Shown here: one piece after another, positions 49,034-64,000 of the stretch
Numbering within the stretch: the stretch's first letter is position 1
How the letters are laid out: the number at the start of each line of letters is the position of its first letter
Virus record (IMG/VR): IMGVR_UViG_3300025519_000001
Coordinates: 90,760 to 154,759 of that record
Source of the DNA: a virus
DNA: 64,000 nucleotides
Strand: one strand, 5' to 3'
Position numbers and translations under genes: made by a program
The notes under the pieces: model-generated
Seen by the model: the letters and a program-made list of their open reading frames with translations, nothing else
Databases searched by the model: none
What the model was told of the DNA's origin: nothing

Positions 49034-51614
49034 TTCTACCTACACCAACTTCAACAATTTTGTAGTATCTACCCAAAAACTCCTTACCTTCTGGATCACC
49101 CGATGAAACTTCAATAATTTTTTTCTGAATATTTTTGGGCGAATTTGTTCTTAAATTCTCTAACATCTCATCCCCAAATATAACCCAACATAAATGTTTC
49201 TCTTCACTAATTGAACGATAGGCTACTTTTATGCAATAGTTTGCTAATAGCTTTTTATCAATATTAATTTTAAATATTTTTTCTTTATACTTGTCATAAA
49301 GAATATCTAAAGCATCTTCATCATCCAACTTTATTACTTCCAAAAATTCTTTCTTAAAATCACTATATATACTCTTTATTTTGTTTATAATATGTTGATT
49401 TGATAAATCAAGCGTATTATCTATAAGCAAATAACCATTATTAGAAACTTTATTGTCCCATTTAATATTTTGTCTTTCCCATTGACATATATACTCACAA
49501 AGTTCATTCATTGCAGTTTGCGATTTGAATGAATTATAAGGAATCCTATCCTCTGGATCACTCTGCTTATTAATTTCTTTAATTCGATTATATACCCTTA
49601 ATTTCTTAGGATAATTGTAAAGTATAAAATGAGGAAGACGTTTTAAATATCTACGTAAGTTTTTCGTGATAACCCATCTAAAACCTGTCTTCACAAAATC
49701 GATTTCTTTTCCTTGATACAATCTGAGAAGTGCAACATTGTCTTGGTTAATTTTCTTCCACACTGGATCTTCTGTATATTGATTTAAAATAGAAGTCGCA
49801 ATATTTGTTATTTCTCCAATTCGACTATCTCTGCTATTACACTCATATTTAATTATATTTTCTAAATTATATTCGACTTCATCAACCGATTTTTTGTCTT
49901 CAATATCAACCACAATAGGTAAATCTATCTTTGCATCAACAAGAATTTTATTGGGACAAAGGAGGATAATATCTCCGTCCATATCTGCTCCGCCTTGTTG
50001 TTGCATCGACAAATCATGCATATTCACCATACAAACGTCTTGGTCTTTAAAATGAGATAAATATTTTTTTGTTATTTGATTTTCAACAATCTTCACTTTG
50101 TTAACTTCAGATGGATCTACAAGAGGACTTCTAAATGACAAACAATTTTCTTGTTTCAAATTTTTTGAATAAAACTCGCCTGCATTTAAACATCCAACAG
50201 GTTTTAGTCCTCCCGCATACTCTAAATATCCAATAATATCACCAACAACTATATGATAAAAGCCCTCCGCATATATCTTTCCATATTTCATTTGAGTTAT
50301 TGTTTTGTTCAATTTTCTTTTTAATGTATTTTTTATACAAGGGTCTTTTAACATTTCTGTGTTAATTAATATTGCTTCAACAAATTTACTAGAAATATTT
50401 GCTTTTCCTGTATTATTGATTCCTAAAAATTTTAAAGTGTATAATAATTCTCCATTAATTATCTTCTCTAATAGTTCTGTAGAGTAACTTGCCACCTTAA
50501 TAATTTTATCCTGATTTGTTAGATCAAGCGTATTAAATTTTCTTTCTTTGTTTTTAAATTGTTCCATATATTTAGGATTTATCAAATTCAAACATTGAAG
50601 ATATTGAAAATTTAATTTGGTATATAAATCTAGAAATTTTTTATTGTGACTATATTTACTGATACCGATTGGATATTGATATTTATTTACTCTTTTTAGA
50701 TATTCATTCCATGCTTCACTACCAAAATTCTTCTTAAATATCCCATGTGCTTTCCACATCGTAACATTCCAGATGCAATCAATTTTTTCAACATCATGCC
50801 AATTTCCAAATATATCTTGGATTTTATTTATACCGTGTTCTTTATAAAATTCCCTAAAAGGAACTTCAACCGTCATTCCTTTCAAAAAGGGTAATCTGAT
50901 TTGGAACGCGATAGAATTATTTTCATTGTCCAATGTTTTATTAAACCAATCGCTAATTTCTTTCGTATGTACTCCAAAACCGTCAAAGGGTGATTGAGAA
51001 ATATCTTTAAAACCTTCTTCAATAACCCTTTGTTTCTTTAAAGTTTTTACAATACCTGAGTTTTTATCCGTATACTCAATATCTTTTTCTACAGCATATC
51101 GTACATATTGATTTGGAAGAATCTTTTTAAATTCATCAACCATAACTATGTACGGTAAATTTCCTTCTACAAATAGACAAGAACTTAAAATCAAATTTCT
51201 ATAACTTTCATATTTAGAAATGTTGCATTTATCAATACTAACTCCAAGTTGACTACGTTCCATCAAACGCTCAAAATATTCTTCATCAATAAAAACTGTA
51301 ATTCCTTCTTTAGCCTGAGAAGCACTCTTACCAAAACGTACATATTTCTTGTCATTATAATAAAAACCTTCTCGCAATAACTTCTTTAAATGTTCTTCAC
51401 GTTTTTTGTTGTGCTTCGCTTCCACATATATTAATTCATTAATTCTTTGAGTGTCATATCCACGCTCAATCCTTAATTGATTAAAGAGATGAGTATTTTG
51501 CTGTCTTATGATAAAATTTAATTCTTCTTCTGGACTCAAATTAATTCTAAAATCACATTTTATAATATCTTGAATTTTTATTTTTAAAATATCGTACATT
51601 CGGATTTTTTGCAA
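49023..51614 (-). CDS. yonO: YonO-like single-subunit DNA-dependent RNA polymerase
   Basis: FDGFG, FQIRLPFLKG, FRSP, catalytic GGADMDGD, IGEITN, EIDFVKTG; 863 aa heading the late block. Confidence 0.88.
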   Translation of the reverse strand: MQKIRMYDILKIKIQDIIKCDFRINLSPEEELNFIIRQQNTHLFNQLRIERGYDTQRINELIYVEAKHNKKREEHLKKLLREGFYYNDKKYVRFGKSASQAKEGITVFIDEEYFERLMERSQLGVSIDKCNISKYESYRNLILSSCLFVEGNLPYIVMVDEFKKILPNQYVRYAVEKDIEYTDKNSGIVKTLKKQRVIEEGFKDISQSPFDGFGVHTKEISDWFNKTLDNENNSIAFQIRLPFLKGMTVEVPFREFYKEHGINKIQDIFGNWHDVEKIDCIWNVTMWKAHGIFKKNFGSEAWNEYLKRVNKYQYPIGISKYSHNKKFLDLYTKLNFQYLQCLNLINPKYMEQFKNKERKFNTLDLTNQDKIIKVASYSTELLEKIINGELLYTLKFLGINNTGKANISSKFVEAILINTEMLKDPCIKNTLKRKLNKTITQMKYGKIYAEGFYHIVVGDIIGYLEYAGGLKPVGCLNAGEFYSKNLKQENCLSFRSPLVDPSEVNKVKIVENQITKKYLSHFKDQDVCMVNMHDLSMQQQGGADMDGDIILLCPNKILVDAKIDLPIVVDIEDKKSVDEVEYNLENIIKYECNSRDSRIGEITNIATSILNQYTEDPVWKKINQDNVALLRLYQGKEIDFVKTGFRWVITKNLRRYLKRLPHFILYNYPKKLRVYNRIKEINKQSDPEDRIPYNSFKSQTAMNELCEYICQWERQNIKWDNKVSNNGYLLIDNTLDLSNQHIINKIKSIYSDFKKEFLEVIKLDDEDALDILYDKYKEKIFKINIDKKLLANYCIKVAYRSISEEKHLCWVIFGDEMLENLRTNSPKNIQKKIIEVSSGDPEGKEFLGRYYKIVEVGVGRNAS

Positions 51615-51748
51615 TGAACCACCTCATCATCTTGTTGATTACTAAAACGTATGATCTTTTGAGAATCCTCATCAAATGTCTCATATTGATCATCGATAAA
51701 ACCGTCATAATAAACATCTTGCCAAGTTAATCTAGAAAATCCCTTCAA
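51584..51748 (-). CDS. Small acidic ORF upstream of and overlapping the RNAP gene
   Basis: Manual: TTG after AGGTG, MKGFSRLTWQDVYYDGFIDD..., 54 aa. Confidence 0.5.
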   Translation of the reverse strand: MKGFSRLTWQDVYYDGFIDDQYETFDEDSQKIIRFSNQQDDEVVHCKKSECTIF

Positions 51749-51811
51749 ACAAATCACCTGCAATTCACGTTATTTTTAAAATACGCCCCCTTTTATTTTA
51801 GTGGTGCGTGA

Positions 51812-51935
51812 TAGAGAAATACTTGACAGCATTTCTCTTTAATGATAATATATAAAAATTTACATTCAAAAGTCAAGGTTTTTTGAAAATAAATTTTGCG
51901 AATAGTTGACAAAAGAATTTTAATCTTGCTATAAT
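51812..51935. promoter_or_regulatory. Divergent sigma-A promoter cluster with operator-like palindrome
   Basis: + TTGACA 51823; - TTGACT ~51876; + TTGACA(51906)-18-TATAAT(51930); AGAGAAAT...ATTTCTCT brackets the first -35. Confidence 0.65.
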
Positions 51936-51969
51936 CCAGATATAGCAAGATTATTTTAGGAGGGATAAA

Positions 51970-53016
51970 ATGCTTGCGATTAAAAATGTAGGAATCATAA
52001 GAAATCAATCTGTTTTCGAAAATATTCAATCTTTTCTGAGGAACTATGAGAAAAGAAGTAAAAATACAGGAATTGCTTATGAAAATGATATTCGTTTATT
52101 TTTTAGAGTTCTAAAGCACAAAGAATTGGAACAATTATCTGAAGAAGATTTGAAGGTTTCTTTGCCAGAAATTTTTCAATATCAAAATCTGTTGATTGAA
52201 TCTGGAGAATATAAAAACAGCACAATTAATCGTAAAATTAATACTATCAAGAGTTTGTATTCATATCTTAAAGGATGCGAATATGACGTAAACCCTTTTG
52301 TTTTCAAACAAATAAAGGATCTTCCGAACGACACAAAAAATATAGGATTTTTGACCCCTGATGAAGTTTGGTTGCTTGCTGATCTGGCATTACAGGAACA
52401 AAGAGACGGTCTTAAAAAAAGAGCGCTTATTCTTACCGCAGGAACCACAAGTATCAGAAAAAGCGCCATTAGAAAGTTAAAAATGTCACATTTCAGAAAA
52501 AGTGAAGACGATGATCACACGTACATTATTGAATCTGACTTCTTCGACAAATCAAAATTAATCGAAAAAAGAATACATGAAAAATTATATTTTTTGATCA
52601 AAGAAGCACATGGAGATAAAGGTGAAGATGAATTAATTTTTGATATTAGCGATACAGCAATTGATGATATGATGAAACGCTTAATTAAAAAAGCTGGATT
52701 TGACCCAAAAAGAAACTTAAGTTTTCATAGTCTACGTAAAGCTGCGATTATGTGGGTTGATGAATTTACAAACGGAGATATGGTAGCTATTACAGCACAG
52801 GGAGATTGGACAAGTCCTACGGTAGCATACAATAACTACATCAATAAAAAACGTAAAACAAACTTAGCTGGCATTGGAATGTTTGAAGATAGCGATAATA
52901 GCATATATGACGAATTAACTAGAGAAGAAATGCTTTGTTTATTAAAGTCGATTGGGAACGGCCTTGGAGCACAATTGAGAAGTAAAGCTAAAGAAATTTT
53001 AAAAAATAGAAATTAA
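51970..53016 (+). CDS. Tyrosine-recombinase-fold protein (resolvase or recombinase-derived repressor)
   Basis: SAM-like N-domain (NSTINRKINTIKSLYSYL), SIRKS, SFHSLRK, QGDW, YNNY. Confidence 0.8.
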   Translation: MLAIKNVGIIRNQSVFENIQSFLRNYEKRSKNTGIAYENDIRLFFRVLKHKELEQLSEEDLKVSLPEIFQYQNLLIESGEYKNSTINRKINTIKSLYSYLKGCEYDVNPFVFKQIKDLPNDTKNIGFLTPDEVWLLADLALQEQRDGLKKRALILTAGTTSIRKSAIRKLKMSHFRKSEDDDHTYIIESDFFDKSKLIEKRIHEKLYFLIKEAHGDKGEDELIFDISDTAIDDMMKRLIKKAGFDPKRNLSFHSLRKAAIMWVDEFTNGDMVAITAQGDWTSPTVAYNNYINKKRKTNLAGIGMFEDSDNSIYDELTREEMLCLLKSIGNGLGAQLRSKAKEILKNRN

Positions 53017-53030
53017 AATTTTAAAAAAGG

Positions 53031-53062
53031 TTGACTTTTAAAATGAAAAAATGATATATATT
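53031..53062 (+). promoter_or_regulatory. Sigma-A-like promoter of HTH-recD2 operon
   Basis: TTGACT then TG-A-TATATA; resembles the minus-strand RNAP promoter. Confidence 0.5.
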
Positions 53063-53135
53063 AAGTGCCAATTTATATTGGTGCTTTTTTGTTATCGGTA
53101 AACAAAAGTTTAACCAAAAAGAGGTGATTAATGGA

Positions 53136-53300
53136 TTGGAGTACAAAAAACTAATAAGAGACAAAGGATTAAAGCAAAATTTTATTGCTCAAAAAATTGG
53201 TATAAGTAAAACAATGATGTCTTTATTTCTATCCGGGAAAAGAAATTTATCTCCAGAAAATAAGTCAAAGTTACATAGAATTTTAGATATTAACGAATAG
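53136..53300 (+). CDS. Cro/XRE-family HTH protein
   Basis: Manual: TTG after GAGGTG, EYKKLIRDKGLKQNFIAQKIGISKTMMSLFLSGKRNLS, 54 aa. Confidence 0.8.
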   Translation: MEYKKLIRDKGLKQNFIAQKIGISKTMMSLFLSGKRNLSPENKSKLHRILDINE

Positions 53301-53310
53301 GAGGAATTGA

Positions 53311-55584
53311 ATGTCTCAAATTGAAACAACATTAGTACCAGAAAAATTGGTATATTCAAACGGAGATTTTAAAATTTATGCTTGTACCACAAATAACTGC
53401 GAAATTAAATTAAACAATTGGGGTAACTGCTCAATTAAGGGAGTTATGCCACGTTTAGACCTTGGGATTGAATATAAAGCGATTATTGAATTAGATGAGA
53501 TGCATCCTAAATATGGAGCAAGCTATAAATGCATTTCGATTTATCAAGATATTCCAGAATCAACAGAAGGACAAAAGGAGTATCTTGCTACACTAATGAC
53601 TCCTTTACAACTTGAAGAAGTATATAAGGTGTATAGTGAAAATGACGATATAATTGAACTTATCAAAGAAAGAAAATTTGATTATGAAAAAGTACATGGT
53701 TTTGGTCCCATTGTATTTGAGCGAATCTATCAAAAAGTAATGGAAACATTAGAATATAAAGAGATATTAGGTAAGTTTGGGAAATACGGAATTACATACG
53801 AAGCTATTTTAAAACTTGCACAGGAATTAGGCGGAACCAGACAATATGCTGTTCAAAAGCTTGAAGAAAATCCATACATCATCACTTTAGTAAGTGGATT
53901 TGGATTCAAAAAAGCAGATGTTATTGCAAAAAAAATGGGTATCAAGCATAACGATCCAAATAGAATTAGGTGCGGTATAAAATACACCATTGAGGAAAAC
54001 CAGCAAAACGGTCATACATACATAAAAAGAAATGAGCTATTAGAATCAGCTAGTGAAATCCTTGAGTTAAGCGAAAGTGAAATTGAAAAAGAAATTGAAA
54101 GTACCGATGGATTAAAAATAATTGATAATAAGATCGCTTTACAAAGGACATATAATGCAGAGTATTTTATCGCTAAAAAACTAAAAGAAATGCTTGCAGA
54201 CAACGAAGAATTACACTTTGAAGTTAATGATTTTATTGAACGTATGGAAAAGAAATATGGATTTAGTTTAACTGATCAGCAACGTGGCTTTTTTGAAATG
54301 ATTAAGAAGTATAGAGTTGGTATGCTCATTGGGTATGCCGGATCGGGCAAAACGCAAATGTTAAAATTCCTAGTAGAACTTCTTAATGAACTTAAACTTA
54401 CATATACGTTTATGTCTCCATCTGCTCAAGCAGCTAAAGTCTCTACAAAATATACTGGTGTAAAAGCAACAACCATACATAGAAAAATTGGATGGGGTCA
54501 AGATAAAAATGAAAGAATGTTAGTTGAAATAACTGAAGATTTTATAATTGTTGATGAAGCTGGCATGATGGACATTTTTATTGGAAGTATGATGTTAGGA
54601 AAAATTAAAAACCCGAAAGCAAGAATATTATTTGTAGGCGATGTATTCCAACTTCCAGCAGTAGGATCAGGAAATATTTTACATGATTTAATTGAATCCG
54701 GAGAGATTCCTAAAACTGTTCTTGATATTATTTTCCGCCAAAAAGAAGGTGGAATCATCGATATTGCAACAAAGATAAGACTAAAAGAAAAGTTTATTTC
54801 AAATGATTTCTCTGGAAAAAAGTTATTTGGAAATGACTTTATTCTTCACTGTGTAGAACAGGGACATATGGAAAATGGATATAAACATTACTATGATGCT
54901 TATTTAAAAATGTACCCAGCCGAAGATATTATGCTTTTATCTCCAACCAAAAAAGGTAAAATTGGAACAGTAGAAATAAACAAATACGTTCAAGAAAAAG
55001 TAAATCCTCAAGATGGTTATAAGAAGGAGCATTCTTATGGGGATATTACTTTATTTAGAGTTGGAGATTACATAATTAACACACAAAACATGTATGATAT
55101 CTGCAATTACAATGATGAAGCTATTGAACTTGTAAATGGAGATAAAGGCGTTCTTGTTGATATTGTTAAAGATGCAGAAGAAAACTTAAGCAAAAATAGA
55201 CATAAATATGATCCTGAAGAATATGAGCTAGAAAAACGTAAAGAAAAAAATAAAAATGGGATAATCATTGATTATAACGATATTGGAAAGGTCAGAATGA
55301 ATTTCAATGAAATAGGACAATTACTTCATGCTTGGTGTATTACTATACATAAAAGTCAAGGTGATGCTGCTCCAGCCGTTCTAATTGTCGCTGATAGATC
55401 CCACAAATTTCAATTGAGTGCAAATTTACTTTATACTGCTATCACAAGGGCCAAAGAAAAATGTGTACTGCTTACCCAAGCTGAAACATTGAACTATGCT
55501 ATTGGGAAAGTTGAGAATTTTAGAAGGCATACTTTTCTTCAAGAACTGTTGAAAATGGACTTCAATAAAAACAACAAGAACTAA
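53311..55584 (+). CDS. recD2: RecD2-like SF1B helicase
   Basis: ENPY, GFGFKKAD HhH, GYAGSGKT, ATTIHR, VDEAGM, GDVFQLPAVG, ITIHKSQG, LLYTAITRAK. Confidence 0.93.
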   Translation: MSQIETTLVPEKLVYSNGDFKIYACTTNNCEIKLNNWGNCSIKGVMPRLDLGIEYKAIIELDEMHPKYGASYKCISIYQDIPESTEGQKEYLATLMTPLQLEEVYKVYSENDDIIELIKERKFDYEKVHGFGPIVFERIYQKVMETLEYKEILGKFGKYGITYEAILKLAQELGGTRQYAVQKLEENPYIITLVSGFGFKKADVIAKKMGIKHNDPNRIRCGIKYTIEENQQNGHTYIKRNELLESASEILELSESEIEKEIESTDGLKIIDNKIALQRTYNAEYFIAKKLKEMLADNEELHFEVNDFIERMEKKYGFSLTDQQRGFFEMIKKYRVGMLIGYAGSGKTQMLKFLVELLNELKLTYTFMSPSAQAAKVSTKYTGVKATTIHRKIGWGQDKNERMLVEITEDFIIVDEAGMMDIFIGSMMLGKIKNPKARILFVGDVFQLPAVGSGNILHDLIESGEIPKTVLDIIFRQKEGGIIDIATKIRLKEKFISNDFSGKKLFGNDFILHCVEQGHMENGYKHYYDAYLKMYPAEDIMLLSPTKKGKIGTVEINKYVQEKVNPQDGYKKEHSYGDITLFRVGDYIINTQNMYDICNYNDEAIELVNGDKGVLVDIVKDAEENLSKNRHKYDPEEYELEKRKEKNKNGIIIDYNDIGKVRMNFNEIGQLLHAWCITIHKSQGDAAPAVLIVADRSHKFQLSANLLYTAITRAKEKCVLLTQAETLNYAIGKVENFRRHTFLQELLKMDFNKNNKN

Positions 55585-55648
55585 ATGAAACAGAGTCGGC
55601 TTCATAAGCCGATTCTGTACTTGAATTTTTTGCATATGGGGGATTTTA

Positions 55649-55876
55649 ATGAACTTCTTTTATTGCTACGACAGACGACTTCTTACATTTCTGTTAAATA
55701 AAAAGTTCAAATATATATGTGCTGGTCTACATATGAAAACATCATTACCGTTTTGGCAATTTCAAATTACAGACGAACTACAAAAAGCCATTCAAGAGTA
55801 CAATGACAAAATGAAAAAAACGGAGCAAAGTACAACCAAAAACTTTGACAAAATGACTTTTAAAAAAACCTTATAA
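55649..55876 (+). CDS. DUF5659-like small protein
   Basis: FYCYD..L..FL...F.YI....H......FW.F..T.EL..AI.EY. Confidence 0.6.
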   Translation: MNFFYCYDRRLLTFLLNKKFKYICAGLHMKTSLPFWQFQITDELQKAIQEYNDKMKKTEQSTTKNFDKMTFKKTL

Positions 55877-56127
55877 ATCAAGGCTTTTTTAATGGTGTTT
55901 TGACAAAATGCTCAAAATGACCCATTTTACCCCCAAAAAGTTTGACAAAATGCTCAATTTGACGTAAATTTGGGGTCAAAACTTTGACAAAATGGCCGAA
56001 ATACGGACAGGGACGGTACATTCAAAAAAACCTTATGTACTAATGGGAAAATGAGAATATGGAAAATATTAACTTTGACAAAATGACTTTTTTGACGCAT
56101 TTTTGAAGCCAAAAGTTTGACAAAAGG
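55802..56127 (+). repeat. Iteron array, probable replication origin
   Basis: TTTGACAAAATG-like units at 55802, 55844, 55899, 55941, 55983, 56074, 56116 (spacings 42,55,42,42,91,42); AT-rich tract ~56145-56185 follows. Confidence 0.8.
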
Positions 56128-56344
56128 TCGTTTTTACGGATGTACTTAATTATTATAATAATTAGTACTAATATATATAATAAATTCAGTTCGCTATCAC
56201 AGATAGCTCACTTGGTACGCTTCGCTTTGTTTTGGGATATGAGAATGAGAATATGAATATGAGAACAAGTTACAAGAAACAAAATACAAAAATAGATGTA
56301 ATATGGCTTAGTCAATCACGTGTTAATCAAAGGAGATACAAAAA

Positions 56345-57202
56345 ATGAATTTTGTTGACGATCATGTGTTATTAAAATCCAATTGGTTTGATAAAGGTGG
56401 ACTAATATCAAAAACAAACTGTAATGTATTGTTATTGTATTTGATTCTATATAAATTCAGAATACATAATCAGGAACATGAACACATGTTTTTAACAAGC
56501 ATGAAAATGCTCAAAAAAGAAACAGGATTTACACTTGAAAAAACATATGAGTTATTCAAATTGCTTATCAGGCATAAAATAATCAGTTGTGATGTTACAA
56601 GATGGGACAGATACACAGATAATGAAATCATGACTGTGAAATCATTGGAATTTCCGAAAACAGAAAGGATTCAAAATAAAGATGAAGAATGGCAAGATAA
56701 GCCTTTGAGTGAAGATGATCAGTACGTTTCTGTGGATTTAAAATTGATGCAATATTATTTGGATCTTGGATTGTCTGGTGAAGAAATTGCTTTGTATTGT
56801 TTATTGAAGAAGGGCAGAAATAAAACAGAAGGAAAAACACTATGGTCTATTGATACGATGTCACAGATGCTTGGTTTAAGTAAGGATAAGGTTCATAAGA
56901 TTATTATGAAATTAAATAGGTTGTATTTATTAGCTTCTGTATTGAAGGTTTCTGGGAGTAAAGTAGTTCAAGGAAAGAGTGTTAGGGTTTATAAATATGA
57001 ACATTATATTTTCCCACGGTTTAATGATTTAGAGGAATATAGGAGCAGTTGGCTTAAGGATGTTATTGAGGGCAATATTAAAAGATGGGATGGGAGCAAG
57101 GGCAAAAAGGGAAATGGAAGGACGAGAGGTAAAAGAAAAAATAGTGGAATTGACGAGATAGATGAATCAGTGAATGAACTTGAGCTTGTGTTTGATGATT
57201 GA
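56345..57202 (+). CDS. Probable replication initiator (tandem winged-HTH)
   Basis: Two LY..L / S...L....G HTH-like repeats; directly downstream of iterons. Confidence 0.6.
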   Translation: MNFVDDHVLLKSNWFDKGGLISKTNCNVLLLYLILYKFRIHNQEHEHMFLTSMKMLKKETGFTLEKTYELFKLLIRHKIISCDVTRWDRYTDNEIMTVKSLEFPKTERIQNKDEEWQDKPLSEDDQYVSVDLKLMQYYLDLGLSGEEIALYCLLKKGRNKTEGKTLWSIDTMSQMLGLSKDKVHKIIMKLNRLYLLASVLKVSGSKVVQGKSVRVYKYEHYIFPRFNDLEEYRSSWLKDVIEGNIKRWDGSKGKKGNGRTRGKRKNSGIDEIDESVNELELVFDD

Positions 57203-57209
57203 TTAGTGA

Positions 57210-58060
57210 ATTGATTGGTGATTTAATATTAAAATAGCGGCCATTTATGGTCGTTTTTTATTTTTGGTGGATGATTGATGGTTGTATTGGCGATGAGATT
57301 ATTAGTGTTTTTAATGATGGATGATGTAATCGTGGTGAATCGGATGGTGGATTTAGGGGTGTATAGGAACGAAATTTGGGAGTTTTGGATGGATGTGAAA
57401 TGTGAGATTTTTTGTTGAAAAATAAGTGGTTTTCGAGCGTTTTTGGATGGTTTTTGGAGAAAAATCATTAAAATTTGGTGTTTTTTAATCGCAAAAAATA
57501 TTGATTTTTAAGGGATTTTTGATGGTTGAATGGGGGTTGTTACGGAATTGGAAATTGCCTTGGTTGTTATTTTTGCATTTGTTTATGGTGTGTTTTCGAT
57601 TATGATTGCGATATATTTGTGGCTGTTTTTATGGATGATTTGGTATATGATGGTATTTTTGTTGAATCGCTCGTTTTGTGTATTGGGTGTGGTGATGGAT
57701 GTGCTGACGGTAGAAATTATGGAAAAAATGGAATAAAATGTGTAAACTATCCCCCCTACCTATGGTAGCATTTAGCACCCAAAAAGCTAGGAAAATCCGG
57801 CCATAATATGAGTTATAGACGGATTGCCGGATTGCGATAGTATCCAGGCGAGCGAAATAGTACTTTCATTCTTTATGGCGTTAAAGCATTAAAGTTTAGT
57901 ATATTAAAGTTCTAAAGTTAAAATGGCGACAAAATACTAGCGAAATAAAAATGGAAATAATCGCCATTGTAACAAGCCGCGTTTTGGTAGTGTCTTAGGT
58001 GTATTAAGTGAACTAATACACTAATACACTAGTGCACAAAAGCCAATCAAAAAAACATCA
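57210..58060. other. Non-coding strand-skewed region with CCCCCC switch point; possible packaging start or genome end
   Basis: G/T-rich to ~57745, CCCCCCTACC at 57751, then A-rich DNA with TAAAG and ACTAATAC mini-repeats. Confidence 0.4.
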
Positions 58061-58079
58061 AAAAAAATATAAAAAGTGT

Positions 58080-58108
58080 TTGACATTATGCGATGCCGCG
58101 AGTATAAT
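58080..58108 (+). promoter_or_regulatory. Perfect consensus sigma-A early promoter with A-tract UP element
   Basis: TTGACA-17-TATAAT with upstream A tracts. Confidence 0.9.
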
Positions 58109-58114
58109 TAAAAA

Positions 58115-58560
58115 TGTAAGGAACAACGGACACCAGCGAACGCTAGATGCGAGCCGACCGCACACAATGGTGGGATGCTGCCAGCCAGTAGGCTCGATGA
58201 TGCTAAGTGGGAATGTCCGCATAAAAGCAAAATATCGCAACGGCAGGGCGGACGTGCCTAGATAGCTAGGCAATCCATCCGGGAGCGCCTAACAGCGCGA
58301 CAGTCATGCACTTTGATAATTACATATCGGCCCATCCGTTGATCGTCAACGTTAAAACGCTACGCGAAACAGCGCGGCAAGCACTAGGCAGGAAATGGGA
58401 AGCCTGTCTAGGCGACTGTCCCGGAGGAAGCGTCTCCTCTACTATCGCCCGCTATCGGACATAGATAGGGGAGGCGACGACCGACGCAAGGCAGGCAGGG
58501 TAGGAGTCCCGCACAAAACCCATAGCAACGATAAGAAGGTTATAACGCCCCACAATGCTT
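58115..58560 (+). ncRNA. Large structured leader RNA of the early operon
   Basis: GC-rich, no credible ORF, many nested helices; boxA-like GCACTTTGATAA at 58308. Confidence 0.6.
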
Positions 58561-58736
58561 TTTATGTTAGTTTTGCCTTTCCTCGCTTCGCAATCCTCGA
58601 TTCAAAAGCTGCACATAACGATATTTGCTCATGTAACACAATTGTTATAGTCTTCTTATCGCTGTTGCTAGCACTAGACAGTCTCAGCCTTTTGGCTGTC
58701 TTTTGTGTCCCCTGTTTAAAAAGGAGAATGTTACAT

Positions 58737-58970
58737 ATGGAAAAAAATGACATTGAAAAAATATGTGACAAAATGAACAGAGGCGAATTGAAAAATACAT
58801 TTGACGCGATGGTAAATCAAGCAGATTACCATGAATTGAGGCAAATGTTATTTGCAGCCAACGATTTGATGACGAGTGTCCAAAGAAGGATATATCTCAA
58901 AAAAATATGCCATAATAGGATTGCAGATTTTATAACGGCTGTTGAAGAAAATGGGATTTTAGAATTCTAA
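58737..58970 (+). CDS. Small early protein (77 aa)
   Basis: SD AAGGAG at 58721, MEKNDIEKICDKM...; real part of track ORF 58395-58970. Confidence 0.65.
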   Translation: MEKNDIEKICDKMNRGELKNTFDAMVNQADYHELRQMLFAANDLMTSVQRRIYLKKICHNRIADFITAVEENGILEF

Positions 58971-59062
58971 ACCAAAAACCAAAAACAGGGGACACAAAAG
59001 ACAGCCAAAGATATTTTTGGCTGTCTTTTGTGCTTCCCTGTAAAAAAATGGAGGAATAAAAA

Positions 59063-59248
59063 ATGCGTAGAACTTTTACGGAAGAAGTCGCCTACTATGA
59101 CGCAAAAAAAGTTATGCCAAATGTGTATGTTGGCACAAAAAACATCAAAACAGGCTACCGCATTATTACAGGTAGCGAATCAGGTTATACGTCCGTTATC
59201 GTATCTCATCAACAGGTTGATGCCATTAGAAAATTCTTGAATATATAA
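59063..59248 (+). CDS. Small early protein (61 aa)
   Basis: SD TGGAGG. Confidence 0.7.
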   Translation: MRRTFTEEVAYYDAKKVMPNVYVGTKNIKTGYRIITGSESGYTSVIVSHQQVDAIRKFLNI

Positions 59249-59339
59249 CACAAAAAACAAAAAACAGGGAAGCAGAAAAGACAGTCAAAAAACAATAACA
59301 AAACATCATCTTATAACGCTATAAGGAGAGTGACACACA

Positions 59340-59435
59340 ATGACGCAACGTCAACTAATCCTAGCGATTAGCCGTCTCCAACGGCGACAAATGCTCAAAA
59401 GCCTTTTCGTACATGGTCGCTTGACCATGCGCTGA
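59340..59435 (+). CDS. Small basic peptide (31 aa)
   Basis: Manual: SD AAGGAG, MTQRQLILAISRLQRRQMLKSLFVHGRLTMR. Confidence 0.45.
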   Translation: MTQRQLILAISRLQRRQMLKSLFVHGRLTMR

Positions 59436-59462
59436 AAAAAGCAAAAAATGGAGGAATAACAA

Positions 59463-59741
59463 ATGACAAAAAACCAAACGATCATCCTTTCGGAACTTGC
59501 TCGTCTTGGAATTAAATTCCAATACGACGGCCAAAACCTCCTCACGTTCCAAGAATGGAAAAAGCGCGGCTTTTACGTTCGGCGCGGCGAAAAGGCGTTT
59601 CTCCAAGTGCCTTTGTGGACGCCATGCGAAAAAACCGTTACAAAAGACGGAAAAGAAGAAAAGCAATTCTATTTTATTCTCAAAAAGGCTTCTCTCTTTG
59701 CGCCTTCTCAAGTTGAACGCCTTATAGTAAAAGGCGCATAA
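59463..59741 (+). CDS. ArdC-N-like ssDNA-binding domain protein
   Basis: TFQEWKKRGFYVRRGEKA...LW...F..SQV. Confidence 0.7.
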   Translation: MTKNQTIILSELARLGIKFQYDGQNLLTFQEWKKRGFYVRRGEKAFLQVPLWTPCEKTVTKDGKEEKQFYFILKKASLFAPSQVERLIVKGA

Positions 59742-59857
59742 CAGGAGGTAAAATATACTACAAGAGATAAAAAAATTTGAGTTGATCGACGGAACGAAAA
59801 AATATATAAGCCGTGATAAAATAATTGATATTATGATATGAAGGGAAGGAAATAAAT

Positions 59858-60079
59858 ATGCATAAGTACAATCCCACTACTAACGCAATTGTTATAGGCG
59901 ATTCGTTCCCGTTCCTCTTTTCACGTATCCGTTGCAAGCTGACGGATACAATTTACAAGGCAAAAAACGCCTACCGGTCGCCGGAAGGAGACGATATCTA
60001 TACATTCGTTTCTGATTGCGGAAAATCGTTTGACTCCGCGATCTATGTCGGATTTTTTGACAAGTACGAAAGCGTATAG
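59858..60079 (+). CDS. Small early protein
   Basis: SD AAGGA, 73 aa. Confidence 0.55.
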   Translation: MHKYNPTTNAIVIGDSFPFLFSRIRCKLTDTIYKAKNAYRSPEGDDIYTFVSDCGKSFDSAIYVGFFDKYESV

Positions 60080-60117
60080 ATCTAGGAGCTCGCTCGAGAG
60101 TGTCGGACAGCCACCAT

Positions 60118-60144
60118 AGAAGCCTAATAATAGGCTTCTTTTTT
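60118..60144 (+). terminator. Intrinsic terminator inside the early operon
   Basis: AGAAGCCTA-ataa-TAGGCTTCT-TTTTT. Confidence 0.7.
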
Positions 60145-60180
60145 ATAAAAACAAAAAAACAAAAAATGGAGGAATCTACA

Positions 60181-60438
60181 ATGTCCGAAAACAAAAAGAA
60201 AGCTATTCTGTCCGCTGCTCGCGGAAGCTGGCAGTACAATGTAGCTAGCATGTTGGCATCTGGTCGGCCTATCCAGTCTCCCTTTTCAACGTTGCGCGGA
60301 AAAGCAAAAAATTACGAGTTACATTACAAATCATCTTTCCTGTCGCTCCTCTCCCGTCTCCAAGCAGCAGGAATCCGCATTGAGCGGACGCCGGGAGTCC
60401 GCGGCGGCGAGTATACTGCTACATATCGAGTAGTATAA
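60181..60438 (+). CDS. Small basic early protein
   Basis: SD TGGAGG, MSENKKKAIL... Confidence 0.7.
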   Translation: MSENKKKAILSAARGSWQYNVASMLASGRPIQSPFSTLRGKAKNYELHYKSSFLSLLSRLQAAGIRIERTPGVRGGEYTATYRVV

Positions 60439-60535
60439 CGGTCGCGATATGCTAGGACGCATAACTAAAATATGATATTATGGTTGTGCGTCCGATGGAT
60501 AGCGCGACTATCCAAAAAAAAGAAGGAGGAATAGT

Positions 60536-60682
60536 ATGAAACCTTTGACGCTGAGCGACATTATAAAAGCCTTCGACACTCAGAACAAAGACAAGCCCCA
60601 AAAGCATATTTTTTATGACGGCTTTCCCGGTCTGCCGCGCATAACGGCAGACGATTTGCGCGACTATCAGCGGCCCTTTTAA
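60536..60682 (+). CDS. Small early protein (48 aa)
   Basis: Manual: SD AAGGAGG, MKPLTLSDIIKAFD... Confidence 0.6.
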   Translation: MKPLTLSDIIKAFDTQNKDKPQKHIFYDGFPGLPRITADDLRDYQRPF

Positions 60683-60793
60683 TTGTTTTTACCATGCTAC
60701 TAGGACGCATAACAGCAACATGATACAATTACACACAGTATAGGCGCTGTTGTGCGTTCAAAAACCTATATTGGAAAATGGAGGAACAAAAAA

Positions 60794-60940
60794 ATGAGAA
60801 ATACGATATTAAGAGATATGGATACTTTGCATCATGATCCTGTTAATGGCTTTTATGACAAATCTTTAGACATGTTTTTTTCTGACTTGGGCGAATGGTT
60901 AAAATTTAAATATGAGAAAAAATGGAGTGATATTTTATGA
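60794..60940 (+). CDS. Small early protein
   Basis: SD TGGAGG, MRNTILRDMD... Confidence 0.6.
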   Translation: MRNTILRDMDTLHHDPVNGFYDKSLDMFFSDLGEWLKFKYEKKWSDIL

Positions 60941-61197
60941 ACATAACAATTGAACAATATCATGAGTATATGTTTTTAATCGAACAAGAAATGCTTAATA
61001 ATAAAATGCTATATAACAAAGCAGCCAACGAAAAGTGGGATGGATGGGAAGAAACATGTAACAATTTAAGAGAAAGAAATAAGCAATTGAGAAATACTTG
61101 GTTCATGCTCAATAAACCCGAAAATGGAACGCCGAATGGATGCGCAGAATTTTATGCGCCAGAAAAGCAACGATATATAAATAATCTTATTCCTTGA
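60937..61197 (+). CDS. Small early protein
   Basis: ATGA overlap with previous gene, SD GGAG. Confidence 0.65.
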   Translation: MNITIEQYHEYMFLIEQEMLNNKMLYNKAANEKWDGWEETCNNLRERNKQLRNTWFMLNKPENGTPNGCAEFYAPEKQRYINNLIP

Positions 61198-61311
61198 TCA
61201 TTTATTCTACCATGCTAGAACGCACAAATGGCCGTTCGTGCGTTCAATGAATGGTAAAAACATCCACTATAAAAATAAAATATTACATATCACAAAAAGG
61301 AGTAATGAAAA

Positions 61312-61839
61312 ATGGAAATCAGAATCTATGTTGCTAACCTTGCCGCTTATAACGCCGGCTTTCTTGTCGGAGAGTGGATCGACCTTCCACTTTCTGACGA
61401 AGAACTGCGCGAAAAAATCCAGTCCATTCTCGACGCCTGGAACGATGGCTTTTCGCCGTCGGAAGAATATGCCATTCATGACTATGAAGCGCCTTTCTCC
61501 ATTGGCGAATATGACAGTCCGTATAAAATCAATGAATGGGCAGAAAGACTGTCAAACATCAGCGAAGATGAAGAAGTAATAAATGCCATTATTAACCATT
61601 TTTCGACTGTAGAAGAAGCGATAGAAACCATTGAAAACGGCGAATATCGAATTTATAATGATTGTGATGACATGGCGGACGTAGCATTCCAATTATGGGA
61701 GGAATCCGGCAGACTTGCAGAAGTCGAAAAAGTCATTTCTCCCAGTTATATCGACTGGGAAGCAATCGGAAGGGATATGGAAATTGAAGGAACGTTTATA
61801 AAAACAAATTATAATACGTTTGTTGAAATTATTGGATAG
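61312..61839 (+). CDS. ardA: ArdA antirestriction protein (type I R-M DNA mimic)
   Basis: IYVANLAAYNAG.LVGEWIDLP, EEYAIHDYE, YIDWEAIGRDM; very acidic. Confidence 0.93.
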   Translation: MEIRIYVANLAAYNAGFLVGEWIDLPLSDEELREKIQSILDAWNDGFSPSEEYAIHDYEAPFSIGEYDSPYKINEWAERLSNISEDEEVINAIINHFSTVEEAIETIENGEYRIYNDCDDMADVAFQLWEESGRLAEVEKVISPSYIDWEAIGRDMEIEGTFIKTNYNTFVEIIG

Positions 61840-61851
61840 AGGGTGGTTTAA

Positions 61852-62046
61852 ATGGGCGTATTCAATGGCGTTATTAAAGGACAAAACAAAACTGTAACTT
61901 ATATGACGTCGGATGGATTGAAGGATACTATAAATCTTGTAATAACAAATGTAAATGAAACGCATATTTGCGGACTTCAAGAAGTTTGCGGAGGCAGAAA
62001 AATCGAAAGAATAATTTACGGCGATTATATTATTAGTATCCAATAA
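61852..62046 (+). CDS. Small early protein
   Basis: SD GAGGG, 64 aa. Confidence 0.55.
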   Translation: MGVFNGVIKGQNKTVTYMTSDGLKDTINLVITNVNETHICGLQEVCGGRKIERIIYGDYIISIQ

Positions 62047-62154
62047 CCAGTTACAACGCTTTTCAGCCGCATAACAGGCATACAAGCCTATTGTGCGGCT
62101 TATAAAGCGTTGTAGTAGCGCAAGCAGCGCCATAATAACAGGAGGCGATATAAC

Positions 62155-62583
62155 ATGTCCAAATATGCACTTGTAACCAACGCCAACAATCAAACAATCA
62201 AAATGGTCTATAACAGCCAGGCCATAGGAGTAATGGATTCTGCTACATATCGCGCTACTAAATCTTATTTAAAGCGTTACCTTTTCCATGAAACAAATCA
62301 AGCGGGAATTCCGCTTGAGTACCACAGACACATAACAGATTCGTTTCCGAATTTCGAAATTGTTTTTGAAAATGAACAGGATTCACAAGCTTGCGCGAAG
62401 CTTGCGCTTCTTTTCAGGCTTCAAAAAGGCGTTCATGACGTTAATAAAATTTTTCTAATGGCGCAGCGCATAGAAAATTTCACAAGAGAGGAGGCGGCCT
62501 ATTGGCTTTCTAGGACGTTGCATGGCACGGACGAACATAGGAAATGGGCAGTAAAAGGCTTGCGGATTATGTTGGCTGGATGA
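62155..62583 (+). CDS. Early protein with FTREEAAYWL helical domain
   Basis: SD AGGAGG; LALLFRLQ...FTREEAAYWL...WA..GLRIML. Confidence 0.65.
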   Translation: MSKYALVTNANNQTIKMVYNSQAIGVMDSATYRATKSYLKRYLFHETNQAGIPLEYHRHITDSFPNFEIVFENEQDSQACAKLALLFRLQKGVHDVNKIFLMAQRIENFTREEAAYWLSRTLHGTDEHRKWAVKGLRIMLAG

Positions 62584-62703
62584 TGTTATGATAATCTAAC
62601 AACAGATAGAACCGGCAAATGTTCGGTGCGCCGGTTCTATTAAAAACAAAGTAGGCGAGAGGGGCCTACCAAATTGACTCGTGATATCAAGGAGGAAAAT
62701 CAC

Positions 62704-63156
62704 ATGAAAAAATGGTATATCGATGATGTTTTTGTGCGCGAAGGCCGCATGTATGATCGCGGCTACTACATTGCGCAGAATGACGCGAAGGCATGGGTCG
62801 AGTGGCGAGAGCCTATTCCAAACGGCGAGACATACACATTTCCGCTCTCGGAATGCGCACATGAAGATGGTACGCCGATCCAAGTTGAGGACGGCGAACT
62901 AATTGGTACAATAGTCGAAGTCTCTGTGGATCGTCTCGAAATCCGCGAAGACTTTCCAAATCGGGACGAGGCATACGCTATTCTGACGGACGGCCAGCAC
63001 TTTGCCTTCGCGTGGGGGCCGAAATACCCCTACGCCGAAATAGTTCCGGCGCAGGATGTGAGGGACGGCGAGAGCGGGCTGGAGTGGTACGCCACCGAGC
63101 ATGAGGCTCGGGCGGCGATGAACGAGGCGACGGATGCCTGGAACACGCAGGGCTAG
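62704..63156 (+). CDS. Acidic early protein
   Basis: SD AAGGAGG, MKKWYIDDV...; higher GC than flanks. Confidence 0.7.
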   Translation: MKKWYIDDVFVREGRMYDRGYYIAQNDAKAWVEWREPIPNGETYTFPLSECAHEDGTPIQVEDGELIGTIVEVSVDRLEIREDFPNRDEAYAILTDGQHFAFAWGPKYPYAEIVPAQDVRDGESGLEWYATEHEARAAMNEATDAWNTQG

Positions 63157-63211
63157 GGACTGTCTCGCGCAAGCCGAGACCGCCGGGAAACCGGCGCTCC
63201 GCTCAACCTGC
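63147..63211 (+). ncRNA. Twister-sister-like self-cleaving ribozyme (three-way type), copy 1
   Basis: GCAGG-GCTAG-GGA-CT-GTCTCG CGCAAGC CGAGAC-CGCCGG GAAA CCGGCG-C-TCC-GCTCA-A-CCTGC; predicted cut C63204/A63205. Confidence 0.8.
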
Positions 63212-63271
63212 TATAACAGGCGGCGCGTAAGACCGCACCAAATGGGCGGCGGCGCGAAAGGAGAATGAAAT

Positions 63272-63874
63272 ATGACTTGGGATGCATGGGATTATTACAA
63301 TAATTGCCCCGTTTGTGGCGAGGCAAACTATACCAGTCATGGTTATTGCTCGGACGAGCACTACCTGACTTCGCTCAATAATGAGGAAAAATTTGCATAT
63401 CTATCCCAAAAAGCAGCCAAAGACGCTGCCGAAAGGGAGCGAGAAGCGAAGCAAGTACAGCGCATTATTTCATTCATTAACACCCATAAACCCGTATACC
63501 AAATGCCGGCAGATTCTGTCTGCTTTTGGTGGGAAGATCGCTATCGCCCTGATTTTACGGATTTTCTCGGGAGATGGCAACGTAACAAATGCTTTTGTTA
63601 CGGTCGCGTGGTTTACGGTGATAGAGGCATATGGGCGGAAAGTCTCCTTGAACTGGAGGAGGCTTTCCACCAAAAGAAAGTAAAAATTGTCTACGACATT
63701 AAAGATCATTTGGGTAATTTAGTGTCGTGGGAAGACTTCCTGTATTACGCGGTTACGGCCTGCGTCAATACGGAAGAGCAGTTCCTTGGCATCAAAAATT
63801 CCGCCAAAGAATTCATTCTTGGGCGGAATAGCAAAATCCAGAGGTATTCTTTTGCAGATGGGCTAGAACCCTGA
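63272..63874 (+). CDS. Early protein with N-terminal Zn finger
   Basis: CPVC...YCS..H; SD AAGGAG. Confidence 0.7.
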   Translation: MTWDAWDYYNNCPVCGEANYTSHGYCSDEHYLTSLNNEEKFAYLSQKAAKDAAEREREAKQVQRIISFINTHKPVYQMPADSVCFWWEDRYRPDFTDFLGRWQRNKCFCYGRVVYGDRGIWAESLLELEEAFHQKKVKIVYDIKDHLGNLVSWEDFLYYAVTACVNTEEQFLGIKNSAKEFILGRNSKIQRYSFADGLEP

Positions 63875-63939
63875 GCAGGGCTAGGCCCAGTCCCGTGAAA
63901 GCCGGGGCCGCCCCGAAAGGGGCGCGGCGCTCAACCTGC
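63875..63939 (+). ncRNA. Twister-sister-like self-cleaving ribozyme (three-way type), copy 2
   Basis: GCAGGGCTAGGCCCAGTCCCGTGAAAGCCGGGGCCGCCCCGAAAGGGGCGCGGCGCTCAACCTGC closely matches, from memory, the crystallised three-way twister-sister; predicted cut C63932/A63933. Confidence 0.88.
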
Positions 63940-63972
63940 TATAACAGCAGGAAAAATTTAGGAGGGATTCAC

Positions 63973-64000
63973 ATGGAAAAGACTATTCAAATTAAGAGTG
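63973..64000 (+). CDS. Start of next early gene (truncated by window end)
   Basis: SD AGGAGG, MEKTIQIKS... Confidence 0.5.

What the first reader, a model, noticed from the sequence alone, without database searches (positions are those of the whole stretch)
58080..64000. Early anti-defence operon apparently cut into per-gene mRNAs by a layered RNA-processing programme
Seen: one perfect sigma-A promoter, a ~450-nt structured leader, and many gene boundaries carrying an RNA device - gene-enclosing 27-28 bp stalks, four related long hairpins, two twister-sister-like ribozymes - plus an internal terminator. Established: T7 and SPO1/SP82 early mRNAs are cut at RNase III stems; ArdA and ArdC-type genes act just after DNA entry. 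Inference: this phage combines antitermination, host dsRNA cleavage and self-cleavage to make many stable, separately translated anti-defence mRNAs. I do not know this combination as a described system.
Basis: partly seen in the sequence, partly recalled or inferred. Interest (0 to 1): 0.9.

Follow-up and report, generated by a model that had tools for sequence, protein, structure and literature searches.

The report
Self-cutting phage early operon, polar motif
The first ~20 kb that this temperate Paenibacillus-type phage transcribes is dotted with self-cutting RNAs and double-stranded RNA stems that probably cut one long message into gene-sized pieces (a known phage trick, here in an unusually mixed form), and the same stretch is saturated with a six-letter DNA word that the rest of the genome avoids on that strand, for reasons unknown.

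Summary
The devices are real: a 12/12 sigma-A promoter, two twister-sister ribozymes above Rfam cut-off, two 27-28-bp gene-enclosing stalks, four long bulged hairpins and one terminator. The operon continues past the window (circle closed by 107 bp) to ~19.5 kb, with a third twister-sister plus pistol- and hammerhead-like RNAs. Related phages keep the layout with other parts: pistols and hammerheads, stalks with compensatory changes, a boxA-like site, and a ~170-nt covarying leader RNA absent from Rfam. Processing into gene-sized mRNAs is likely but untested. Each layer is known (T7/SP82 RNase III; ribozymes flanking prophage genes including ardA, 2011), and this scan saw ribozyme arrays in other phages. 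'Stable' and 'anti-defence' are weakly supported: 2 of ~15 window genes are Ard proteins. Enrichment recurs in four related phages and depletion in four (two only partly). That points to a direction-of-travel DNA signal with no known reader. New variant of a known kind.

The parts
57741..57755 (+). 15-bp site conserved in four phages at the switch from GT-rich to AC-rich DNA, ~330 bp before the promoter; candidate pac or origin (function inferred)
   Evidence: same letters in L031, L037 and L152; SPbeta pac is mapped between or around yonR and yonP, next to yonO (PMC8270828)
58080..58108 (+). sigma-A consensus promoter, 12/12
   Evidence: promoter-like sites stand at the same place in relatives (seen)
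58250..58276 (+). leader hairpin with AUAG loop, shared with R2 and R4 with compensatory stems
   Evidence: alignment A7
58308..58319 (+). boxA-like site (TTGA.AA core aligned in four leaders; R2 has GATCTTTGAAAA)
   Evidence: a Paenibacillus rRNA leader has CCTTTGAAAA ~164 nt before the 16S probe site
58360..58523 (+). conserved ~170-nt structured leader module, no Rfam family; four stems, invariant UAGGAGU loop, possible GGG/CCC pseudoknot
   Evidence: 20 pairs with double changes, 0/500 shuffles, only 4 sequences; pseudoknot not significant
58523..58670 (+). long hairpin, about 25-bp stem
58691..59009 (+). stalk 1 (27 bp) enclosing the 77-aa gene 58737-58970; its 5' arm overlaps a weak terminator-like hairpin 58685-58707
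   Evidence: a strain variant skips 58726 to 58974, i.e. lacks this gene
59014..59291 (+). stalk 2 (28 bp) enclosing the 61-aa gene 59063-59248; arm 59014-59041 can also pair with arm 58983-59009
59245..63946 (+). 15 co-oriented ATAACA sites in the window (none in the leader); the array continues to about C1:13600
59463..59741 (+). ArdC N-terminal-domain protein (92 aa)
   Evidence: PF08401, 28.9 bits over cut-off 22.6; homologues in R1 and R4
60118..60144 (+). intrinsic terminator candidate
   Evidence: in two other runs a twister-sister ribozyme follows 60075 instead
60441..60508 (+). long bulged hairpin H1, RNase III-like shape; holds an extended -10 promoter-like site
   Evidence: (z -7.25)
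60703..60759 (+). long hairpin H2, related to H1; a further copy at L001:927-1012
   Evidence: (z -5.56; copy z -8.05)
61208..61256 (+). hairpin H3 with 4x5 internal loop, upstream of ardA
   Evidence: z -4.15
61312..61839 (+). ArdA anti-restriction protein; second copy at L001:1067-1591 (76% identical)
   Evidence: PF07275 E 1.8e-36
62051..62115 (+). long hairpin H4 with 2x3 internal loop; same build recurs in R1, R2, R4
   Evidence: (z -7.33)
63145..63215 (+). twister-sister ribozyme 1; expected cut after C63204
   Evidence: RF02681 49.4 bits; cut site by analogy to the family (own knowledge)
63272..63874 (+). 200-aa gene of unknown function bracketed by the two ribozymes
63873..63943 (+). 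twister-sister ribozyme 2; expected cut after C63932; the 3' product refolds into a 6-bp hairpin 2 nt from its 5' end, then the ribosome-binding site
   Evidence: RF02681 62.2 bits

Best explanation
This is the head of the ~19.5-kb, ~50-gene early accessory operon of a temperate, SPbeta-like (YonO-encoding) phage of Paenibacillaceae. Host sigma-A polymerase starts at 58080. The leader's boxA-like site and conserved RNA module probably make the polymerase terminator-resistant, as in rRNA operons (inferred). The long transcript is then cut at a subset of gene boundaries, by self-cleaving ribozymes (family membership shown, activity inferred) and by host RNase III at stalks and bulged hairpins (inferred from shape), giving one- to few-gene mRNAs, each with its own strong ribosome-binding site and often an end hairpin. 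The same repeated devices act as swap points for gene cassettes (strain joins seen). Laid over this is a polar ATAACA(G) signal that marks the early region on one DNA strand and is avoided on that strand elsewhere; I read it as a separate, DNA-level layer whose reader is unknown.
For: Ribozymes above cut-off at stop codons or spacers, all on the sense strand: 3 twister-sister here, plus a type II hammerhead and a pistol variant just under cut-off; 3 pistols in R1, 1 in R2, 2 in R4, 1 in G057; a type I hammerhead in R2. Different classes at equivalent places imply that cutting, not a sequence, is selected. Gene-enclosing stalks recur in R2 and R4 with compensatory changes, and R1 has the stalk closed by a 14-nt loop. 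Non-terminator hairpins are enriched in early spacers. Leader module covaries; boxA-like core aligns in four leaders. Precedent: clustered hammerheads flank single prophage genes, including ardA, and cleave in vitro and in vivo (PMC3088659); SP82 early RNAs are RNase III targets (PMC4838370). Phage type.
Against: No RNA run was available, so no end is shown. Most boundaries lack a strong device. Extended -10 sites in three hairpins and an 11/12 promoter at 61631 could restart transcription after the terminator. Stalk arms can form a local hairpin instead. Ribozyme cuts can destabilise mRNA in Firmicutes (glmS, PMC6765202). Covariation rests on four related sequences. Most genes have no known function.
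Confidence: 0.65

Rival explanations
1. Promoter-stem-loop cassettes (PeSL-like): the hairpins are mainly internal promoters and recombination handles; transcription stops at 60144 and restarts, and RNase III plays little part.
For: Three related hairpins carry TG-extended -10 hexamers, the first ~300 bp after the terminator. Strain variants join or skip at the devices: 58726>58974, 59741>60126, 60520>62152, 61799>62052, 62618>63895, 63939>63222. Precedent PMC2839356.
Against: Their -35 match is poor (8 of 12 overall). H3 and H4 lack the -10 site but keep the stems (one search lists none there); by eye the relatives' hairpins lack it too. The hairpins have no U-tract, unlike PeSLs. Ribozymes are not explained.
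Confidence: 0.2
2. Timed destruction rather than stabilisation: cuts create entry points for RNase J1 and 3' exonucleases so that toxic early products are made only briefly; MazF sites add to this.
For: glmS precedent (PMC6765202). TACAT within 40 nt upstream of 8 of 50 early starts vs 1.7 expected; the Bacillota MazF site is UACAUA (bioRxiv 10.64898/2026.08.06.743204); the phage encodes its own PemK/MazF just after the operon.
Against: All three twister-sister 3' products refold a hairpin 2 nt from the new end, which should shield them from RNase J1 (own knowledge). MazF-site enrichment is stronger in the middle genes than in the early ones.
Confidence: 0.25
3. For ATAACA(G): an RNA-level or transcription-oriented site (antiterminator reloading, RNase target, or stoperator-like repressor site) rather than a DNA-traffic signal.
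For: Strictly co-oriented with the early transcript; often placed in hairpin and ribozyme loops and over stop codons. Avoided on the sense strand of middle genes (7 vs 32.8). In G057 the late-half depletion is weak (16 vs 24).
Against: In the late half it is depleted on the antisense strand (9 vs 34.1) and normal on the sense strand (33 vs 32.9), also after synonymous-codon shuffling; pooled late halves 40 vs 109, other strand 105 vs 108. It also sits inside paired stems.
Confidence: 0.35
4. For ATAACA(G): a host chromosome polarity motif (Chi- or SRS/KOPS-like) exploited by the phage.
For: Chi sites are known to cluster near ends or origins of some temperate phages (own knowledge).
Against: No enrichment or leading-strand skew in 400 kb of a Paenibacillus chromosome, where an SRS-like word did stand out. 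Would not predict genome-wide avoidance. The true host genome was not tested.
Confidence: 0.07

Closest known systems
Clustered hammerhead ribozymes flanking prophage genes (Perreault et al. 2011, PMC3088659; review PMC6765202)
   Same: Several self-cleaving ribozymes on the sense strand bracket single genes in a temperate phage operon that includes ardA; same proposed purpose, single-gene mRNAs.
   Different: Here twister-sister, pistol-like and hammerhead RNAs are mixed and swapped among relatives, and interleaved with dsRNA stems; ardA itself is preceded by hairpins, not ribozymes.
RNase III processing of T7 and SP82/SPO1 early mRNA (SP82 cited in PMC4838370; T7 from own knowledge)
   Same: Host-polymerase early polycistron with anti-restriction genes and long bulged intergenic stems followed by strong ribosome-binding sites.
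   Different: Temperate SPbeta-like phage; gene-enclosing stalks like rRNA processing stems; ribozymes added; no cleavage shown; SP82 site sequences could not be compared.
rRNA-operon (Nus/boxA) and lambdoid antitermination (own knowledge)
   Same: boxA-like site in a long structured leader, followed by stalks that enclose genes.
   Different: No N-like protein identified; the adjacent 170-nt RNA module matches no Rfam family and was not found in cultured phages or plasmids.
T4-type PeSL cassettes (PMC2839356)
   Same: Repeated intergenic stem-loops in a hypervariable early region serve as shuffling points.
   Different: PeSLs are strong promoters plus terminators; these hairpins lack U-tracts and have at most weak promoters.
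Mycobacteriophage L5 stoperators (own knowledge)
   Same: Many asymmetric, co-oriented sites in a temperate phage, often at gene boundaries.
   Different: Stoperators are 13 bp and follow transcription direction; this motif is 6-7 bp, confined to one region, and its avoidance follows the genome strand.
pLS20 EGeRS1 leaders of establishment genes (PMC8708921)
   Same: GC-rich, 400-600-nt structured leader ahead of ardC-type genes in Bacillales.
   Different: EGeRS1 has no sigma-A promoter and blocks read-through; no sequence match in plasmids.

Membership tests
Twister-sister ribozyme (RF02681) | Sequence and structure score above the curated cut-off | tested here: met
   62.2, 49.4 and 42 bits vs 34, full model
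Twister-sister ribozyme (RF02681) | Self-cleavage at the conserved C-A step | not testable with these tools
   no RNA run listed
Clustered ribozymes in prophage operons (Perreault 2011) | Several co-oriented ribozymes flanking single genes | tested here: met
   two consecutive genes each bracketed by twister-sisters; pistols in relatives
Clustered ribozymes in prophage operons (Perreault 2011) | Processing of the transcript into gene-length RNAs in cells | not testable with these tools
   needs RNA end mapping
T7/SP82-type RNase III-processed early operon | Host promoter driving a long co-oriented early operon | tested here: met
   (sequence level only)
T7/SP82-type RNase III-processed early operon | Long intergenic dsRNA stems with internal loops, beyond chance | tested here: met
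   z -4 to -9; enrichment p 0.04 here, 0.0008 pooled
T7/SP82-type RNase III-processed early operon | Cleavage by RNase III | not testable with these tools
   shape only; SP82 site papers not held in the library
boxA/Nus antitermination | boxA sequence in the leader | tested here: inconclusive
   core aligned in four leaders, close match in R2, two mismatches in the core region here
boxA/Nus antitermination | Nus-dependent read-through of terminators | not testable with these tools
   needs reporter assay
PeSL cassettes | Strong promoter in each cassette | tested here: inconclusive
   8 of 12 with TG extension in three hairpins only
PeSL cassettes | Stem-loop is an intrinsic terminator | tested here: not met
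   no U-tract after H1-H4
PeSL cassettes | Gene gain and loss at the cassettes | tested here: met
   strain joins at the devices (contigs, some with short sides)
Stoperators | Orientation follows transcription across the genome | tested here: not met
   avoidance follows the genome strand in both gene orientations
Stoperators | Bound by the phage repressor | not testable with these tools
   candidate repressors at 51970-53300 not assayed
Host Chi/SRS motifs | Over-represented and replichore-skewed in the host chromosome | tested here: not met
   one Paenibacillus genome, not the proven host
pLS20 EGeRS1 | Sequence similarity and absence of a sigma-A promoter | tested here: not met

The most novel reading that the evidence does not exclude
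ATAACA(G) is a polar DNA code read by a machine that travels the whole genome in one direction (DNA ejection or uptake, the packaging motor, or a replication fork). It marks the ~20-kb early anti-defence region as a functionally distinct, probably first-entering segment and must be absent in that orientation elsewhere, and the rRNA-operon-like transcription and RNA cutting serve to express that segment quickly.
Probability: 0.3. Interest if true: 0.85.

Novelty: new variant of a known kind. Interest (0 to 1): 0.58.

Why it matters
The purpose of bacterial and phage ribozyme clusters is still open (PMC6765202). Here strains and relatives carry a terminator, a stem or one of three ribozyme classes at equivalent boundaries, so the effect of each cut on expression can be tested directly. 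The leader module is an uncatalogued structured RNA beside a boxA-like site and a candidate phage antiterminator in Firmicutes. The polar hexamer, enriched about six-fold in one region and the most avoided word on the same strand elsewhere regardless of gene direction, suggests an undescribed directional signal in phage DNA traffic.

Tried and rejected
No RNA holder listed among sequencing runs; this says nothing about expression. Contig depth gave no doubling over the early region (837-894 vs 1012 on 50329-60729 in the probable source run); contig depth cannot map ends, so this was not used as evidence. No RtcB in the record, so no support for circularising the ribozyme-bracketed mRNA by a phage ligase. 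DNA pattern scans of viral contigs for the ribozyme tail, hairpin core and leader found nothing or chance hits. Cultured phages have no similar region. The leader model found no match in seven Paenibacillaceae genomes with distant SPbeta-like prophages, and six of the seven lack the ATAACA array in the 40 kb examined. PMBT24 and 50 kb of SPbeta lack any such localised word. A first hairpin census by helix length did not separate early from other spacers; only the z-score census excluding terminators did. The leader pseudoknot is not significant (76/500; misregistered). Palindrome avoidance is only slightly stronger in the early region, so two-step injection is not supported by that test. Atlas searches gave no lead for DUF7680 or the bracketed gene. 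My hammerhead descriptor missed three hammerhead-like RNAs seen by eye in R1, R2 and R4, so ribozyme counts are lower bounds. A literature search for the motif returned only primer noise.
Full report
Setting. The window is the last 64 kb of a 154,759-bp virus record. Other assemblies bridge its end to its start with 107 bases, so the region flagged is the first 6 kb of an operon of about 19.5 kb and 50 small genes. The phage encodes a YonO-like polymerase and a serine recombinase. A relative is a provirus next to a gene closest to Paenibacillus ppiB. I infer a temperate, SPbeta-like phage of Paenibacillaceae. Relatives used: R1 (L031), R2 (L037, L034, G001), G002, R4 (G008, L152) and a prophage in G057.

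Observation. Every listed device is present. The promoter at 58080-58108 is the only perfect one. Stalks are 27 of 27 and 93% paired. Four hairpins fold with z -4.2 to -7.3. Both twister-sisters pass Rfam's cut-off over the full model. Caveats: the whole leader is only mildly more stable than shuffles; arms 2 and 3 of the stalks can pair with each other; and strong non-terminator hairpins occupy a minority of spacers, though more than elsewhere (5/28 vs 2/54; pooled 20/81 vs 4/74). Only two window genes have an anti-defence annotation, ArdC-N and ArdA. Beyond the window lie a second ArdA, a weak Cas_VVA1548 match just under cut-off and a GmrSD N-terminal domain protein.

Ribozymes. Past the window come a third twister-sister (42 bits), a pistol variant (30.3) and a type II hammerhead (33.9), the last two just under cut-off. 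Relatives use other classes at gene boundaries: three pistols in R1, one in R2, two in R4, one in G057, and a type I hammerhead in R2. In two other runs a twister-sister follows 60075, where this strain has its terminator. This interchangeability suggests that cutting is what is selected. The arrangement and its interpretation are published: clustered hammerheads flank single prophage genes, including ardA, and were proposed to give single-gene mRNAs (PMC3088659); the purpose is still unproven (PMC6765202). After the expected cut each twister-sister product refolds a hairpin 2 nt from its end, which favours protection, but glmS shows that such cuts can also start decay.

Stems. R2 and R4 enclose their first gene in a 26-27-bp stalk with compensatory changes between them; R1 has the stalk with a 14-nt loop, and a strain of this phage lacks the gene inside stalk 1. 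So the stalk is a hairpin whose loop can carry a gene. The hairpins have a lower stem, a small internal loop and an upper stem of about one helical turn, the shape of T7 and SP82 RNase III sites (own knowledge; SP82 targets cited in PMC4838370). Cleavage is inferred. Three hairpins also contain extended -10 sites, so internal restarts after the terminator remain possible. Strain joins at many devices show a second role as shuffling points, as for PeSLs (PMC2839356).

Leader. A boxA-like core aligns in four leaders and resembles a Paenibacillus rRNA leader. It is followed by a 170-nt module with 20 doubly changed pairs in four sequences, with no Rfam, phage or plasmid match. Promoter, boxA and stalks together recall an rRNA operon. 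Antitermination is plausible but untested, and four related sequences are thin support for covariation.

The polar motif. ATAACA occurs 78 times on the operon strand of the early region (13.6 expected) and 12 times on the other; ATAACAG 52 vs 1. It lies in genes, over stop codons, in loops and in stems. Outside the region it is the most depleted of 3,787 hexamers on that same strand (16 vs 66): 7 vs 33 where genes run forward and 9 vs 34 where they run backward, while the opposite strand is normal. Synonymous-codon shuffles confirm this (z -3.6 and -4.7). Enrichment recurs in R1, R2, R4 and G057. Depletion recurs in R2 (11 vs 32), G002 (4 vs 19) and the G057 middle genes (11 vs 34), and only weakly in R4 (16 vs 25) and the G057 late genes (16 vs 24). 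Pooled values are 40 vs 109 and 34 vs 92, with opposite strands 105 vs 108 and 86 vs 100 (genomes are related). A signal read on mRNA should follow gene direction; this one follows the genome strand. It is not skewed in a Paenibacillus chromosome and is absent from PMBT24 and the part of SPbeta examined. A conserved 15-bp site lies just upstream of the promoter, and SPbeta's pac is mapped near the start of yonO (PMC8270828), so the operon may sit near a virion end. I therefore favour a DNA-level signal read by something that moves along the genome in one direction (about 0.5 among readings of the motif), ahead of a transcription-level site (0.35). Which machine reads it is unknown. I found the enrichment; another first-stage note on this genome records it too, and the scan has noted polar words in early operons of two other phages.

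Verdict. Observation confirmed; interpretation partly supported. The processing model is the best reading (0.65) but assembles known parts, so it is a new variant of a known kind. The uncatalogued leader RNA and the strand-polar enrichment and avoidance of ATAACA are the fresher elements. Interest 0.58.

Noticed in passing
G000:C1:20001-87000 and G008 middle genes: The MazF target word TACATA is enriched on the sense strand of middle genes (50 vs 22; 49 vs 13) and near other Paenibacillus prophage recombinases, recalling MazF control of SPbeta-like lysis-lysogeny.
   Followed up: partly
G000:C1:16353-16676 (L039); L034:18659-19069: Phage-encoded PemK/MazF gene just after the early operon in this phage and in R2.
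   Followed up: no
L001:218-760: Weak match to Cas_VVA1548 (24.4 bits, cut-off 25), which I recall as Csx16; Csx16 is a cA4 ring nuclease, rare in phages (bioRxiv 10.1101/2024.09.24.614671). Possible anti-type III CRISPR gene directly after twister-sister 3. R2 has a similar-looking small protein at L040:6800-7171 (by eye).
   Followed up: partly
window 60536-61839 and L001:770-1591: Duplicated block (small gene, hairpin, ardA) at about 80% DNA identity within the operon.
   Followed up: partly
window 57185-58050: GT-rich low-complexity tract after the putative replication initiator switches to AC-rich DNA around the conserved 15-bp site; same in R1, R2, R4. Candidate origin or pac.
   Followed up: partly
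window 59340-59435: Unlisted 31-codon ORF with its own ribosome-binding site; R1 has a 29-codon ORF at the matching place.
   Followed up: no
L001:14055-14374: tRNA cluster (three clear, one weak) right where the ATAACA array ends.
   Followed up: no
G001, about 8-12 kb from its integrase end (late genes): Local cluster of six ATAACA sites on the otherwise depleted strand, in a tail-associated gene region.
   Followed up: no
L012, L013, L015: Homologues of the 56345-57202 HTH protein sit in ~17-kb Paenibacillus elements with integrase, capsid, terminase and portal genes, resembling small phages or satellites.
   Followed up: no
L173:938-1066: skipping-rope RNA in the G057 prophage.
   Followed up: no
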